This document shows, piece after piece, positions 30,422 through 42,253 of a DNA stretch of 64,000 nucleotides (positions are counted from its first letter, which is position 1; each line of letters starts with the position of its first letter). The position numbers were made by a program, and so were the translations under genes. The notes under the pieces are model-generated. The model was not told the DNA's origin, did not search any database, and saw nothing but the letters and a program-made list of their open reading frames with translations. Source of the stretch: Escherichia coli (GTDB lineage: Bacteria > Pseudomonadota > Gammaproteobacteria > Enterobacterales > Enterobacteriaceae); assembly GCF_045037415.1 (NCBI RefSeq), contig NZ_CP173438.1. One strand, written 5' to 3'.

Positions 30422-30604
<183 letters not shown>

Positions 30605-36719: not shown

Positions 36720-37670
36720 ATGCGTGTGTTACTGGCTCCGATGGAGGGTGTACTTGACTCTCTGGTGCGGGAATTACTGACCGAAGTTAACGACTACGAT
36801 CTGTGCATCACCGAGTTTGTCCGCGTGGTGGATCAACTGCTGCCAGTAAAAGTCTTTCATCGCATTTGCCCTGAGCTACAAAATGCCAGCCGGACACCAT
36901 CCGGTACGCTGGTTCGCGTGCAGTTGTTAGGGCAGTTCCCACAGTGGCTGGCAGAGAACGCCGCCCGTGCGGTGGAGTTAGGTTCCTGGGGCGTGGATCT
37001 TAACTGCGGCTGCCCGTCGAAAACGGTTAACGGTAGCGGTGGTGGGGCAACGTTACTGAAAGATCCTGAACTCATCTACCAGGGTGCAAAAGCGATGCGC
37101 GAAGCTGTACCGGCGCATTTGCCTGTCAGCGTAAAAGTGCGTCTGGGCTGGGACAGCGGTGAGAAGAAATTTGAAATCGCCGATGCGGTTCAACAGGCTG
37201 GTGCTACGGAGCTGGTAGTACATGGGCGGACAAAAGAGCAGGGTTACCGCGCGGAACATATTGACTGGCAGGCGATTGGCGAGATTCGCCAGCGGCTTAA
37301 TATTCCGGTGATTGCCAACGGTGAAATCTGGGACTGGCAGAGTGCGCAACAATGCATGGCGATCAGCGGCTGCGACGCAGTGATGATTGGTCGCGGGGCG
37401 CTCAATATTCCCAACCTGAGCCGTGTGGTGAAATATAACGAACCGCGAATGCCGTGGCCGGAGGTGGTTGCTTTGCTGCAAAAATATACCCGTCTGGAAA
37501 AGCAGGGCGATACCGGGTTATATCACGTTGCGCGGATTAAACAGTGGTTGAGTTATTTGCGTAAAGAATACGATGAAGCAACGGAATTATTTCAGCATGT
37601 TCGGGTGTTGAATAATTCCCCTGATATTGCAAGGGCTATTCAGGCCATTGATATCGATAAGCTGCGATAA
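36720..37670 (+). CDS. dusC: tRNA-dihydrouridine synthase C
   Basis: Track ORF trimmed to [13 protein letters not shown] (316 aa); Dus-family TIM barrel. Confidence 0.85.
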
Positions 37671-37759
37671 TAGTGGAATCGCAGCTTATCTGAGACAATG
37701 AATCGCTTATTCAGCTTCATCATCTTGTTGCGCTCCTTTCATGAGCTAAGCCACATATT

Positions 37760-37965
37760 GCCACTGGCGCAAGGAGCGCGCAGGGGGAGGACAATCGCCT
37801 CCTCCCCCTGCACCCCCGGGCTCTGGCGAACAAAATCGCCGCTGCGCGGTACCTTCAGCTTATCCCCTTCGGCTACCGGGTCGGGCGCGAGGTAACGTCC
37901 TTGTAAGACGCGCCCTCAGCCCACATCCATGTGGGCTGCCCCGGCCTTCGGGGAACGCTTCAGCG
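37760..37965. repeat. GC-rich dyad-dense intergenic block of unassigned family
   Basis: Successive dyads (gggggagg...cctccccc; cagcccacatccatgtgggctg; ccccggccttcggggaa) in ~200 bp with sharply higher GC than flanks; no credible coding frame. Confidence 0.35.
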
Positions 37966-38057
37966 ATTTTGACGCCACCAACACCGGAGCTGTTTGCAAA
38001 TCAAGTACACAAAATATCTAGTTCCTGACCTGACAACTTATATGCCATATCTGATTT

Positions 38058-38141
38058 TTAAAATATCATCTTAAATACGCCAGTCACCACCAGTAGCCCA
38101 ATCAGGAAAATAATCAATACAGCCCAGAGTATAATTTTCAT
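38058..38141 (-). CDS. yohP: Small hydrophobic membrane protein (27 aa)
   Basis: AAGGAA SD 7 nt upstream of ATG; translation MKIILWAVLIIFLIGLLVVTGVFKMIF; below the ORF-track size cutoff; position between dusC and mdtQ matches K-12 yohP (memory). Confidence 0.55.
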   Translation of the reverse strand: MKIILWAVLIIFLIGLLVVTGVFKMIF

Positions 38142-38364
38142 TGGCGTTCCTTTATTTGTGAGTGCTGAATAAGTATAGGAAAAAACGAAGCCCTTTGCCG
38201 CTATCCATAAACGATTAAGATAAATCGGAAGATATCATTCACTTAGTGTATATTTTTCTGGATATGTCGTTTTATTGCTACTGATGTATTGCCACGCGAA
38301 ACTAAAAAATATATCGCAACACACGGTAATCTCCGCGCACCTTTTCTTACCTGATTATTCCCCC

Positions 38365-39801
38365 ATGAATCGTGATTCCTTTTATCCCGCCATCGCCTGT
38401 TTTCCGCTGTTACTGATGCTGGCCGGGTGTGCACCTATGCATGAAACCCGCCAGGCGTTAAGCCAGCAAACGCCCGCTGCACAAGTTGACACCGCATTAC
38501 CCACGGCGCTGAAAAATGGTTGGCCAGACAGCCAATGGTGGCTGGAGTATCACGATAATCAACTCACTTCCTTAATTAACAATGCACTACAGAACGCACC
38601 GGATATGCAGGTGGCTGAACAGCGCATTCAACTGGCTGAAGCCCAGGCGAAGGCAGTTGCTACTCAGGATGGTCCGCAGATCGACTTTTCTGCGGATATG
38701 GAGCGGCAAAAAATGTCTGCAGAAGGGTTAATGGGGCCGTTTGCTCTGAACGATCCTGCCGCAGGTACGACCGGTCCGTGGTACACCAACGGTACTTTTG
38801 GCTTAACGGCGGGCTGGCATCTCGATATCTGGGGAAAGAATCGGGCAGAGGTAACTGCTCGCCTGGGTACGGTTAAAGCACGAGCGGCGGAACGCGAGCA
38901 AACCCGCCAATTGCTGGCTGGCAGCGTAGCCCGCCTGTACTGGGAGTGGCAAACCCAGGCGGCGTTAAACACTGTCTTACAGCAAATCGAAAAAGAGCAG
39001 AACACCATTATCGCCACCGATCGCCAGCTATATCAGAACGGGATTACTTCTTCAGTTGAAGGTGTGGAAACCGATATTAATGCCAGCAAAACCCGGCAGC
39101 AGCTCAACGATGTCGCGGGGAAAATGAAAATTATTGAGGCACGGTTAAGCGCACTTACAAATCACCAGACAAAGGCATTGAAGCTTAATCCGGTCGCGTT
39201 GCCGAAAGTGGCAAGTCAGCTTCCTGATGAACTGGGGTACTCCTTACTGGCCCGGCGGGCAGATTTGCAGGCGGCGCACTGGTACGTTGAGTCATCGTTA
39301 AGCACTATTGATGCGGCAAAAGCGGCATTTTATCCTGACATCAACCTGATGGCCTTCCTGCAACAGGATGCGTTGCACTTAAGCGATCTGTTCCGTCATT
39401 CCGCGCAGCAAATGGGCGTTACGGCAGGCCTGACGCTACCCATTTTCGATAGTGGTCGTCTTAACGCCAACCTCGATATCGCAAAAGCCGAAAGCAACTT
39501 GTCTATCGCCAGCTACAACAAAGCGGTGGTTGAAGCGGTGAATGACGTGGCGCGGGCAGCCAGTCAGGTTCAGACACTGGCGGAGAAAAACCAGCATCAG
39601 GCGCAAATTGAGCGCGATGCCTTGCGTGTAGTAGGTCTTGCGCAGGCGCGCTTTAACGCGGGCATCATTGCGGGTTCCCGCGTCAGCGAAGCCAGAATCC
39701 CCGCGCTGCGTGAGCGGGCCAATGGCCTGTTATTGCAAGGGCAGTGGCTGGATGCCTCCATTCAACTCACTGGTGCGTTGGGCGGGGGTTACAAACGCTG
39801 A
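38365..39801 (+). CDS. mdtQ: Outer-membrane efflux lipoprotein (OprM/NodT family), apparently intact
   Basis: Track ORF trimmed to MNRDSFYPAIACFPLLLMLAGC lipoprotein signal (478 aa); single uninterrupted frame. Confidence 0.75.
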   Translation: MNRDSFYPAIACFPLLLMLAGCAPMHETRQALSQQTPAAQVDTALPTALKNGWPDSQWWLEYHDNQLTSLINNALQNAPDMQVAEQRIQLAEAQAKAVATQDGPQIDFSADMERQKMSAEGLMGPFALNDPAAGTTGPWYTNGTFGLTAGWHLDIWGKNRAEVTARLGTVKARAAEREQTRQLLAGSVARLYWEWQTQAALNTVLQQIEKEQNTIIATDRQLYQNGITSSVEGVETDINASKTRQQLNDVAGKMKIIEARLSALTNHQTKALKLNPVALPKVASQLPDELGYSLLARRADLQAAHWYVESSLSTIDAAKAAFYPDINLMAFLQQDALHLSDLFRHSAQQMGVTAGLTLPIFDSGRLNANLDIAKAESNLSIASYNKAVVEAVNDVARAASQVQTLAEKNQHQAQIERDALRVVGLAQARFNAGIIAGSRVSEARIPALRERANGLLLQGQWLDASIQLTGALGGGYKR

Positions 39802-41492: not shown

Positions 41493-42080
41493 ATGAGCCA
41501 TGTCTGGGGACTGTTTTCCCATCCCGATCGTGAAATGCAGGTGATTAATCGCGAAAACGAAACGATTTCTCATCACTACACCCACCACGTTTTGCTGATG
41601 GCGGCGATTCCGGTGATTTGCGCCTTCATTGGCACTACACAGATTGGCTGGAATTTTGGCGATGGCACTATCCTGAAGTTATCCTGGTTTACCGGACTGG
41701 CGCTGGCTGTCTTGTTTTACGGCGTTATGCTGGCTGGGGTTGCGGTGATGGGGCGGGTCATCTGGTGGATGGCGCGTAATTATCCGCAGCGTCCGTCACT
41801 TGCGCACTGCATGGTCTTCGCGGGCTACGTTGCAACTCCGCTGTTTTTAAGCGGTCTGGTGGCGCTTTACCCGCTGGTCTGGTTGTGTGCGCTGGTCGGC
41901 ACGGTGGCGCTGTTTTACACCGGCTACCTGCTGTATCTCGGTATTCCGAGCTTCCTGAATATCAACAAAGAGGAAGGACTTAGCTTCTCCAGTTCGACAC
42001 TGGCGATAGGCGTGCTGGTGCTGGAAGTGCTGCTCGCCCTTACCGTTATACTATGGGGCTACGGTTATCGTTTGTTCTAG
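41493..42080 (+). CDS. yohC: Yip1-family inner membrane protein
   Basis: Track ORF trimmed to MSHVWGLFSHP (195 aa); 5 TM segments. Confidence 0.75.
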   Translation: MSHVWGLFSHPDREMQVINRENETISHHYTHHVLLMAAIPVICAFIGTTQIGWNFGDGTILKLSWFTGLALAVLFYGVMLAGVAVMGRVIWWMARNYPQRPSLAHCMVFAGYVATPLFLSGLVALYPLVWLCALVGTVALFYTGYLLYLGIPSFLNINKEEGLSFSSSTLAIGVLVLEVLLALTVILWGYGYRLF

Positions 42081-42253
42081 AAAGTTCTTTTGCGCTGCAT
42101 TGCTGGCGTAAATGTCAGCAATGCAGCATTTCCTCACGATTCTCCTTTGACGATCGCACTTTTTGCTCGTTATGATGGCGTCGCTAGCCTCAGTAAATCC
42201 TTACTCCGGCGGTGCGCAACCCGTGCGCGTGAACCACTATCTGAATGCTCATC

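What the first reader, a model, noticed from the sequence alone, without database searches (positions are those of the whole stretch)
37700..37990. GC-rich, hairpin-dense block between dusC and yohP
About 290 bp of noncoding sequence carries several consecutive strong dyads (gggggagg...cctccccc; cagcccacatccatgtgggctg; ccccggccttcggggaa) and is far more GC-rich than its flanks. It is not REP or ERIC-like; it could be another intergenic repeat family or a structured RNA.
Basis: seen in the sequence. Interest (0 to 1): 0.4.

Follow-up and report, generated by a model that had tools for sequence, protein, structure and literature searches.

The report
Known RRS replication-gap element, naturally inverted
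This GC-rich, hairpin-dense block is the dusC copy of the E. coli "replication risk sequence" (RRS, formerly TRIP1), a foldable DNA element already shown to make the replication machinery leave a temporary single-stranded gap; in this strain it lies in the opposite orientation to the laboratory strain K-12, and its core matches an orphan structured-RNA motif called TwoAYGGAY.

Summary
Window 37716-~38020 is 61-69% GC against 36-45% flanks, and both strands fold far better than shuffles (z about -6).

It is not new. It is the dusC copy of the TRIP1 intergenic repeat (Rudd 1999), renamed RRS by Pham, Cox and Goodman (2023-2026). RRS is a G-quadruplex-bearing element flanking the Ter domain that triggers post-replication gaps.

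- **Distribution.** Homologues occur in 5425 of 5426 complete E. coli genomes, at dusC-yohP, aqpZ-lysO and, truncated, putP-efeU.
- **Orientation.** The searchable RRS papers do not appear to report this. The window's copy is inverted relative to K-12, so the G-run lies on the leading-strand template. This allele is in 2001 genomes and the K-12 allele in 3411. The lysO locus is dimorphic too. At least one strain carries its two full copies as direct repeats.
- **TwoAYGGAY link.** The core (closing stem plus two hairpins) is a decayed TwoAYGGAY motif (Rfam RF01731). It scores 28 bits here, below the cut-off of 43. Kluyvera homologues score 45-54.
- **Structure.** Compensatory changes conserve it, and wobble asymmetry points to the G-rich strand as the folding strand.

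Verdict: an already known element, with a modestly interesting natural variant.

The parts
37716..38020 (-). Whole RRS/TRIP1 element, dusC copy. The strand given is the G-rich (G4, TwoAYGGAY-sense) strand. The high-identity core is 37716-37999; weaker similarity to the lysO copy continues to about 38020.
   Evidence: 93% identity to the K-12 aqpZ-lysO copy over 284 nt and 89% to the K-12 dusC copy over 272 nt. Extent taken from the alignments.
37730..37779 (.). Left-hand stem: GCGCTCCTT (37730-37738) pairs with AAGGAGCGC (37771-37779), enclosing a variable AT-richer loop.
   Evidence: 9/9 inverted repeat. Helix 13 of the consensus structure is 99.3% paired across 20 homologues.
37780..37811 (.). 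Perfect 12-bp hairpin, GCAGGGGGAGGA-8 nt-TCCTCCCCCTGC. Its G-rich arm belongs to the G-quadruplex run.
   Evidence: I3. Two base pairs change A-T to C-G on both sides between the window type and the K-12 type, and pairing is kept (pairs 206:221 and 209:218).
37798..37817 (-). G-quadruplex-type run 5'-GGGGGTGCAGGGGGAGGAGG-3'. It is the homologue of the published K-12 RRS G4, GGGGGTGCAGGGGGCGGCGG.
   Evidence: Read from the sequence. G4Hunter score is 1.92, the largest magnitude in the 64-kb window, against 1.84 for K-12. The K-12 G4 sequence is from PMC10592627.
37814..37831 (.). Direct repeat D1a (CCCCGGGCTCTGGCGAAC). With D1b it marks the apparent end points of the ~125-bp core deletion seen in truncated copies.
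   Evidence: D1. The putP-efeU copy and the ATCC 11775 lysO copy join at these repeats.
37939..37956 (.). Direct repeat D1b (CCCCGGCCTTCGGGGAAC). It also forms the small hairpin CCCCG-GCCTT-CGGGG (37939-37953).
37833..37972 (-). TwoAYGGAY-like core: a closing P1 stem (37831-37846 with 37956-37971) around two hairpins.
   Evidence: Rfam RF01731 gives 28.4 bits (cut-off 43, E = 0.046) with the whole model 1-168 aligned. K-12 copies give 30.6 and 30.9 bits. Kluyvera homologues give 54.2 and 44.6 bits.
37917..37938 (-). Hairpin 1, CAGCCCAC-AUGGAU-GUGGGCUG on the G strand, with an AYGGAY loop. It is invariant in all 20 homologues.
   Evidence: helix 8: 9 pairs, none ever varies. The same 24-27 nt occur in Lachnospiraceae TwoAYGGAY RNAs.
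37883..37915 (-). Hairpin 2, GGGCGCG...CGCGCCC. Its loop here reads ACAAGGACGU, a decayed AYGGAY loop; the loop is intact (ACAUGGAUGU) in Kluyvera genomosp. 3 and in an unnamed Enterobacteriaceae genome.
   Evidence: helix 9.
36720..37670 (+). dusC, the left flank. The gene is co-oriented with the C-rich strand of the element here, and with the G-rich strand in K-12.
38058..38141 (-). yohP (27-aa membrane protein), the right flank. In this allele the yohP transcript would read into the G-rich strand 59 nt after its stop codon.
   Evidence: The consensus scan found no terminator-like site between the gene and the element.

Best explanation
The block is the dusC-locus copy of the Replication Risk Sequence (RRS; Rudd's TRIP1 repeat). 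RRS is a conserved, GC-rich, non-coding chromosomal element of about 290-305 bp that acts as DNA.

Shown in K-12 by others: when the replisome unwinds the element, the exposed lagging-strand template folds (a G-quadruplex plus hairpins). This blocks the lagging-strand polymerase and leaves a post-replication gap of up to about 2 kb, which is loaded with SSB and RecA. The two full copies flank the Ter macrodomain, about 640-675 kb either side of dif. They influence genome-wide supercoiling and are proposed to act as a 'topological relief valve'.

Shown here: the window's copy is homologous to that element, lies at the orthologous locus and is strongly structured, but it is inverted relative to K-12. 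The G-run is on the leading-strand template, and the C-rich strand is the lagging-strand template.

Inferred: in this lineage the dusC copy is a weaker gap trigger. Published in vitro figures for this orientation are about 66% of encounters and gaps of about 325 nt. Engineered inversions gave no RecA or SSB peak in vivo. The lysO copy, which keeps the K-12 orientation in B2-type strains, would do most of the work.

Also inferred: the conserved two-hairpin core, related to TwoAYGGAY, contributes to the fold in addition to the G4.
For: **Identity**
- BLAST gives 93% identity to the K-12 aqpZ-lysO copy and 89% to the K-12 dusC-yohP copy.
- The literature gives the same two loci, a 222-bp GC-rich repeat, the TRIP1 synonym and the G4 sequence (PMC10592627; PMC10287960).
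- dif lies at 1,590,750 in NC_000913.3. That puts the K-12 copies 675 kb and 638 kb away.

**Structure**
- DNA folding z-scores are -6.1 and -6.4.
- The consensus structure has 77 pairs, 99% of cells paired. Seven pairs show compensatory changes, matched by 0 of 500 shuffles. Slid controls give 40-45% paired.
- On the consensus structure predicted for the G strand there are 105 G-T wobble cells against 2 A-C cells. Consensus energy is -119 kcal/mol for the G strand and -104 for the C strand.
- The G-run scores 1.92 on G4Hunter, the strongest in the window.

**Orientation**
- With dusC and yohP co-oriented, the element aligns plus/minus to K-12.
- GC skew of the plus strand is +0.032 and KOPS motifs are 5:0 on the plus strand, so forks move left to right. 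The same reasoning reproduces the published K-12 arrangement.

**Population**
- The window-type junction is in 2001 genomes and the K-12 type in 3411, of 5426.
Against: - No experiment has been done on this allele. Gap formation, RecA loading and G4 folding of the AGGAGG variant are extrapolated from K-12.
- The orientation the authors call 'native' (G4 on the lagging-strand template) is not met here. It is also not met at lysO in 896 genomes.
- The type strain ATCC 11775 has no full copy in that orientation at dusC or lysO, and the search found no further copy. So either orientation matters less in nature than in the K-12 experiments, or the function differs.
- The hairpin that overlaps the G-run is kept by compensatory changes. 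A pure G4 mechanism does not predict this.
- The core resembles a motif curated as an RNA.
Confidence: 0.85

Rival explanations
1. The element works, wholly or partly, as RNA. The G-rich strand would be transcribed, here as the 3' end of the yohP message and in K-12 as the 3' end of dusC. It would fold into a TwoAYGGAY-type structure whose GGA-containing hairpin loops bind a protein such as CsrA.
For: - Rfam TwoAYGGAY aligns end to end on the G strand of every full copy tested (28-31 bits in the window and K-12, 38 in one other Escherichia copy). It passes the cut-off of 43 in Kluyvera homologues (54.2 and 44.6 bits).
- G-U wobbles, which need a single folding strand, all fall on the G strand.
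- TwoAYGGAY has been proposed as a CsrA-binding sRNA (PMC4333381).
- The loops ACAUGGAUGU and ACAAGGACGU resemble the CsrA SELEX consensus RUACARGGAUGU. This is from my own knowledge and was not tested.
- No terminator-like site lies between yohP and the element.
Against: - Folding of a single DNA strand would give the same covariation and wobble asymmetry, so these cannot distinguish RNA from DNA.
- The window and both K-12 copies score below the family cut-off, and the second loop has lost the AYGGAY pattern in nearly all Escherichia copies aligned.
- No promoter-like site lies within or next to the element.
- At K-12-type lysO loci the G strand is antisense to aqpZ and lysO, so there is no consistent transcription context.
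- Cloned RRS blocks purified DNA polymerases and makes gaps in a reconstituted replisome with no transcription (PMC10592627, PMC13308219).
Confidence: 0.12
2. It is a selfish or formerly mobile repeat, spread and flipped by recombination or an unknown transposition process. It would persist without benefit to the host, and the replication gaps would be a side effect of its structure.
For: - Copy number varies from 1 to 8-9 places per genome.
- Both loci carry the element in either orientation, with unrelated flanking spacers.
- The core has been deleted between short direct repeats at two loci, putP-efeU and the ATCC 11775 lysO locus.
- Elements sharing the same hairpin are multi-copy in Edaphovirga (at least 11 hits) and a Thiotrichaceae metagenome-assembled genome (4 hits), and occur in several Shewanella species.
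- Kluyvera genomosp. 3 carries a homologue at a different locus, recD-argA.
Against: - The ends show no terminal inverted repeats by eye, and target-site duplications were not examined.
- The element is present at the same two loci in essentially every E. coli genome and in other Escherichia species.
- Mean column identity is 86% across genera, with compensatory changes.
- Published work could not delete both copies cleanly in K-12 (PMC10592627).
Confidence: 0.1
3. It is a transcription terminator or insulator for the convergent genes dusC and yohP.
For: It lies between convergent genes and consists of strong GC-rich hairpins.
Against: - No hairpin is followed by a T-run, and the terminator scan found none.
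- The same element sits between the co-directional genes aqpZ and lysO.
- The element is far larger and more conserved than a terminator needs to be.
Confidence: 0.03

Closest known systems
RRS-dusC and RRS-lysO of E. coli K-12 (Replication Risk Sequences; Pham, Wood, Cox, Goodman 2023/2024; Kusi-Appauh et al. 2026), equal to TRIP1 of Rudd 1999
   Same: - Homologous sequence (89-93% identity).
- Same dusC-yohP locus.
- GC-rich with extreme secondary structure.
- Same G-run with two A-for-C changes.
- Same hairpins and closing stem.
   Different: - The element is inverted relative to its flanks and to the direction of replication, so the G-run is on the leading-strand template.
- The spacers on either side are unrelated to those of K-12.
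- The G-run and its complementary arm carry paired substitutions (AGGAGG/CCTCCT against CGGCGG/CCGCCG).
- In a strain carrying this allele (AR_0017) the two full copies are direct repeats, not inverted repeats.
TwoAYGGAY RNA motif (Rfam RF01731; Weinberg et al. 2010)
   Same: - A closing stem around two adjacent hairpins.
- The first hairpin has an AUGGAU loop, and 24-27 nt around it are nearly identical to Lachnospiraceae members.
- The whole model aligns on the G strand.
- Homologues of the element in Kluyvera pass the family cut-off.
- Both families are multi-copy in some genomes.
   Different: - The window scores 28.4 bits against a cut-off of 43.
- The second loop reads AAGGAC, not AYGGAY.
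- RRS has an extra ~115-nt arm carrying the G4 hairpin that is not part of the motif.
- TwoAYGGAY is curated as an RNA of unknown function, whereas RRS activity has been shown on DNA.
Neisseria gonorrhoeae pilE G4
   Same: According to the RRS authors it is the only other bacterial G-quadruplex sequence reported to trigger gap formation (PMC10592627).
   Different: No sequence relation is apparent. It serves pilin antigenic variation, not chromosome topology. I did not test it here.
REP/BIME elements (and ERIC, BoxC)
   Same: Intergenic, repeated and palindromic. BIME-2 elements are also linked to DNA topology (gyrase sites).
   Different: - RRS is much longer, has 1-9 places per genome rather than hundreds, and shows no sequence similarity.
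- REP-type Rfam hits (naRNA4) occur elsewhere in the window and loci (30425-30502) but none was listed inside this element.

Membership tests
RRS / TRIP1 | Sequence homology to the K-12 222-bp RRS repeats | tested here: met
   89% identity over 272 nt to the K-12 dusC copy and 93% over 284 nt to the K-12 lysO copy.
RRS / TRIP1 | Sits at the dusC or lysO intergenic locus, flanking the Ter domain about 650 kb from dif | tested here: met
   The element lies between dusC and yohP, as in K-12. In K-12 the two copies are 638 and 675 kb from dif. The distance cannot be measured inside a 64-kb window.
RRS / TRIP1 | GC-rich with unusually stable secondary structure | tested here: met
   GC is 0.61-0.69 against 0.36-0.45 in the flanks. 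Folding z-scores are -6.1 and -6.4.
RRS / TRIP1 | One strand carries a G-quadruplex-forming run | tested here: met
   GGGGGTGCAGGGGGAGGAGG lies on the minus strand at 37798-37817 and scores 1.92 on G4Hunter, against 1.84 for K-12. This is a sequence prediction only; folding was not shown.
RRS / TRIP1 | The G4 strand is the lagging-strand template ('native orientation'), and the two copies form an inverted pair | tested here: not met
   The element is inverted relative to K-12. The plus strand is the leading-strand sequence by GC skew and KOPS, so the G-run is on the leading-strand template. In AR_0017 both full copies lie on the same strand. This is a feature of the K-12 arrangement, not of the sequence family, so homology stands.
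RRS / TRIP1 | Triggers post-replication gaps with RecA and SSB loading | not testable with these tools
   This needs ssGap-seq or a replisome assay. Published only for K-12 sequences (PMC10287960, PMC10592627, PMC13308219).
TwoAYGGAY (RF01731) | Covariance-model score at or above the curated cut-off of 43 bits | tested here: not met
   The window scores 28.4 bits and the K-12 copies 30.6 and 30.9. Homologues in Kluyvera score 54.2 and 44.6 bits.
TwoAYGGAY (RF01731) | Two terminal loops containing AYGGAY | tested here: not met
   Loop 1 is AUGGAU, which fits. Loop 2 is AAGGAC here and AGGGAU in K-12, which do not fit. Both loops are AUGGAU in Kluyvera genomosp. 3 and in the genome MGYG-HGUT-00110.
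TwoAYGGAY (RF01731) | A P1 stem closing the two hairpins | tested here: met
   Helices 2-5 of the consensus structure are 98-100% paired, with three compensatory pairs.
TwoAYGGAY (RF01731) | Exists as a transcribed RNA | not testable with these tools
   No expression data were available. No promoter-like site was found in the element.
REP / BIME | A ~35-nt imperfect palindrome of the REP consensus, present in hundreds of copies | tested here: not met
   The Rfam E-value scan listed no naRNA4 (REP-type) hit within 37716-38020. The family has 1-9 places per genome.
MITE | Terminal inverted repeats and target-site duplication | tested here: inconclusive
   The two ends (TTCATCATCTTGTTGCG... and ...GGAGCTGTTTGCAA) are not complementary by eye. 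No dedicated search for terminal repeats or target-site duplications was run.
Intrinsic terminator | A GC-rich hairpin followed by a T-run | tested here: not met
   No terminator-like sites were found in 37400-38400.

The most novel reading that the evidence does not exclude
The conserved core of RRS is a member or close relative of the orphan TwoAYGGAY motif. That would tie a motif of unknown function, found in gut Clostridia, Psychromonas, Shewanella and other bacteria, to the only chromosomal element shown to program replication gaps.

Two readings follow. TwoAYGGAY elements may be DNA-level replication-gap or pausing devices rather than RNAs. Or RRS may have an unrecognised RNA or protein-binding side.

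In addition, natural E. coli populations carry RRS in both orientations at both loci. [quoted passage not shown]
Probability: 0.35. Interest if true: 0.65.

Novelty: already known. Interest (0 to 1): 0.4.

Why it matters
The element itself is already explained, so its identification only saves a false lead. Two side results could matter to people working on RRS.

1. **Orientation.** The K-12 work treats G4-on-lagging-strand as the native orientation, and engineered inversions abolish RecA peaks and change genome-wide supercoiling. Yet 37% of complete E. coli genomes, including ST131-type genomes identical to this window, carry the dusC copy the other way round. The lysO locus is dimorphic too. 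The type strain has no full copy in the 'native' orientation at dusC or lysO, and the search found no further copy. These strains are ready-made natural experiments on whether orientation and pairing matter.

2. **TwoAYGGAY.** The link to this motif offers a testable function for an orphan motif. It also points to hairpins outside the G4, preserved by compensatory changes, as part of the active structure.

Tried and rejected
- **Second copy in the window.** None was found. BLAST of the element against the 64 kb gave only self-hits and short chance words.
- **Rfam membership.** No family reaches its cut-off in the region. Apart from TwoAYGGAY, the weak hits (miRNA and snoRNA models, E = 1-10) are GC-hairpin noise.
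- **Protein coding.** The 65-aa ORF at 37698-37895 was rejected. Copies differ by 1-nt indels, and the element occurs in both orientations relative to neighbouring genes.
- **Terminator or promoter.** None was found.
- **Simple in-place inversion.** Not supported. The spacers on both sides of the element are unrelated between the two dusC alleles. The alleles look like old haplotypes, and both occur in other Escherichia species.
- **Locus context in other genera.** tblastn with DusC, YohP, LysO, AqpZ and other flank proteins found nothing in the Kluyvera, Pseudocitrobacter or other non-syntenic loci searched. The Kluyvera genomosp. 3 copy lies between recD-like and argA-like ORFs.
- **O157:H7 dusC allele.** I tried to find it by guessing coordinates and landed in a Stx2 prophage, so I abandoned this. 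A per-genome cross-tabulation of the two loci was not possible with the tools.
- **Supplement of the 2023 RRS paper.** Figure S25, on conservation across species, is not held in the library. I could not check whether orientation variants were shown there.

Full report
**1. The observation**

The region between dusC (36720-37670, +) and yohP (38058-38141, -) contains a block whose GC content reaches 0.61-0.69. The flanks are at 0.36-0.45.

They are a perfect 12-bp stem at 37780-37791 and 37800-37811, a perfect 10-bp stem at 37917-37926 and 37929-37938, and CCCCG-GCCTT-CGGGG at 37939-37953. Two longer-range stems also exist: 37730-37738 with 37771-37779, and 37831-37846 with 37956-37971.

Folded as single-stranded DNA, both strands are about six standard deviations more stable than dinucleotide shuffles. 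The values are -78.2 and -73.5 kcal/mol, and none of 200 shuffles did as well.

**2. What it is**

A megablast of the block against 5426 complete E. coli genomes finds it in 5425, with a median of three places per genome. The other places are:
- the aqpZ-lysO intergenic region, at 93% identity over 284 nt;
- a shorter copy between putP and efeU that lacks about 125 internal bases.

A full-text search led to Pham et al. (PMC10592627) and Pham et al. 2023 (PMC10287960). [quoted passage not shown] These are named Replication Risk Sequences (RRS). They had appeared earlier as TRIP1, 'a third partial repeat' making three, in Rudd's 1999 repeat survey.

I located dif at 1,590,750 in NC_000913.3. The K-12 copies, at 915,009-915,292 and 2,229,106-2,229,376, are 675 and 638 kb from it. 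The window's block is therefore the dusC RRS of another strain. It is identical to the copy in ST131-type genomes. The window holds no second copy.

**3. How it works, according to published experiments on K-12**

- RRS anchors strong RecA and SSB peaks on the lagging-strand template. Deleting a copy removes its peak, and moving a copy creates a new peak.
- One strand carries a G4 (GGGGGTGCAGGGGGCGGCGG) that blocks Pol I, II and IV in vitro and slows Pol III in vivo.
- Both copies cannot be deleted cleanly. Double deletion or inversion alters genome-wide supercoiling.
- In a reconstituted replisome, the G4 strand on the lagging-strand template gives a gap at essentially every passage. The opposite orientation gives gaps in about 66% of passages, and they are smaller (PMC13308219).

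The window retains the homologous run GGGGGTGCAGGGGGAGGAGG on the minus strand at 37798-37817. Its G4Hunter score of 1.92 is the strongest in the 64 kb.

**4. The window's copy is inverted**

When dusC and yohP are co-oriented, the flanks align plus/plus to K-12 but the element aligns plus/minus, at 89% identity. The spacers on either side are unrelated.

The window's plus strand has positive GC skew (+0.032) and all five KOPS motifs, so forks travel left to right and the plus strand is the lagging-strand template. The G-run is on the minus strand, which is the leading-strand template. [quoted passage not shown]

Junction-spanning queries give these counts:

| Locus | Allele | Genomes (of 5426) |
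|---|---|---|
| dusC | window type | 2001 |
| dusC | K-12 type | 3411 |
| lysO | K-12 type | 4031 |
| lysO | inverted (e.g. O157:H7) | 896 |
| lysO | neither | about 500 |

Three individual cases:
- **AR_0017** combines the window-type dusC allele with the K-12-type lysO allele. Both C-rich strands lie on the same record strand, so its two full RRS copies are direct repeats.
- **ATCC 11775**, the type strain, has the window-type dusC allele. Its lysO copy is both inverted and has lost its core.
- **E69**, a divergent Escherichia genome, has both loci inverted.

Both dusC orientations also occur in other Escherichia species, so the dimorphism is old or has spread by recombination. The RRS papers in the library do not appear to mention natural orientation variants. 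[quoted passage not shown] Their supplementary figure on conservation is not held.

**5. The core resembles an orphan RNA motif**

An Rfam scan at permissive threshold aligns the whole TwoAYGGAY model (RF01731, positions 1-168) to the minus strand at 37833-37972. The score is 28.4 bits against a cut-off of 43, with E = 0.046. Both K-12 copies give 30.6 and 30.9 bits on the same strand.

An exact-match scan of one genome per species with the first hairpin (GCCCACATCCATGTGGGC) recovered several groups:
- RRS homologues in Escherichia, Kluyvera and Pseudocitrobacter;
- the same hairpin in Edaphovirga (at least 11 hits), several Shewanella species, a Thiotrichaceae metagenome-assembled genome (4 hits) and Lachnospiraceae metagenome-assembled genomes (one with 2 hits).

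The Lachnospiraceae loci are clear TwoAYGGAY RNAs at 72-79 bits. The Kluyvera RRS homologues, whose second hairpin still has an AUGGAU loop, score 54.2 and 44.6 bits, above the cut-off.

So the RRS core, a closing stem plus two hairpins, appears to be a TwoAYGGAY-type structure. In the window and in K-12 the second loop has decayed and the scores fall below threshold. TwoAYGGAY was described in 2010 with no function and was later suggested to be a CsrA-binding sRNA. No paper in the library connects it with RRS.

**6. Structure is under selection, on the G-rich strand**

I aligned 20 homologues from 8 or more lineages; mean column identity is 86%. The consensus fold has 77 pairs with 99% of cells paired.

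Seven pairs have changes on both sides that keep pairing. None of 500 shuffles reach this, and slid controls give 40-45% paired. Two of these pairs lie in the hairpin that overlaps the G-run (A-T to C-G). This argues that the hairpin, not only the G4, is maintained.

On that structure, non-Watson-Crick cells are overwhelmingly G-T on the G strand (105 cells) rather than A-C (2 cells). The G strand also gives the better consensus energy (-119 against -104 kcal/mol) and the better energy in every sequence. The first count leans towards the strand on which the structure was predicted. The independent fold of the C strand loses the long closing stem, which supports the asymmetry.

This identifies the folding strand but cannot tell RNA from single-stranded DNA.

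**7. Rivals**

- **An RNA role** is possible but secondary (about 0.12). There is no promoter signal, the transcription context is inconsistent across loci, and the DNA alone suffices in vitro.
- **A purely selfish repeat** (about 0.1) fits the copy-number variation, the flips and the recurrent core deletions between the direct repeats at 37814-37831 and 37939-37956. It does not fit the near-universal retention at two loci or the K-12 genetics.
- **A terminator** is excluded.

**8. Verdict**

What may be new is modest: its natural inversion, the polymorphism at both loci, and the likely kinship of its core with TwoAYGGAY.

Noticed in passing
window 38275-39801 (+): mdtQ is an intact ORF here (508 aa in the ORF list; RefSeq annotates a 1437-nt gene in an ST131 genome identical across dusC-mdtQ). 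In K-12 MG1655 it is annotated as a pseudogene.
   Followed up: no
window 37656-37690: A perfect 13-bp inverted repeat (GATAAGCTGCGAT / ATCGCAGCTTATC) spans the dusC stop codon in this allele, and no T-run follows. The K-12 allele has an unrelated spacer here.
   Followed up: partly
L095 13397-13716 (E. coli ATCC 11775, aqpZ-lysO): The type strain's lysO RRS is in the O157-type orientation and has lost the two-hairpin core, apparently by deletion between the short direct repeats; part of one hairpin arm is also missing. The G-run GGGGGTGCAGGGGGCGGCGG is kept. The putP-efeU copy has the same kind of deletion.
   Followed up: partly
L074 4104-4167, L016 2218-2281, L083 5670-5733, L042 9360-9423, L029 1594-1657: In Kluyvera, Pseudocitrobacter and an unnamed Enterobacteriaceae genome, a second short two-hairpin TwoAYGGAY match (37-49 bits, model positions 46-112) lies about 90 nt from the RRS homologue. 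In four of the five loci it is on the opposite strand. Nothing equivalent sits next to the window's element.
   Followed up: no
L043-L053 (Edaphovirga cremea), L038-L041 (Thiotrichaceae MAG), L010/L013/L058/L080/L081 (Shewanella): Repeat families in these genomes share the exact 18-nt hairpin GCCCACATCCATGTGGGC, with at least 11 hits in Edaphovirga and 4 in the Thiotrichaceae genome. The sampled copies score 35-42 bits on TwoAYGGAY. Their genomic distribution relative to replication was not examined.
   Followed up: partly
L020 8812-8988, L066 8477-8609, L077 384-560, L086 906-1082: A shorter, more divergent RRS-related subfamily (about 83-85% identity, covering only positions 103-280 of the 311-nt query, or 166-296 in L066) occurs at other loci in several Escherichia species. 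In L077 it lies next to a REP-type match. It may account for genomes with up to 8-9 places.
   Followed up: no
L042 8813-11109 (Kluyvera genomosp. 3): The RRS homologue that passes the TwoAYGGAY cut-off lies between a recD-like and an argA-like ORF (judged from the translations by eye), not at dusC or lysO.
   Followed up: partly
window 62624-62699 (-), 42169-42249 (+), 30425-30502 (+): Rfam matches above cut-off elsewhere in the window: OrzO-P type I antitoxin RNA (98.6 bits), Peptidase-S11 leader motif (72.8 bits), and a REP-type naRNA4 match (88 bits).
   Followed up: no
window 41733-41757 (+): This is the only other stretch in the window with a G4Hunter score near that of the RRS G-run (1.84). 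It is a G-rich run (GCTGGGGTTGCGGTGATGGGGCGGG) whose context I did not examine.
   Followed up: no
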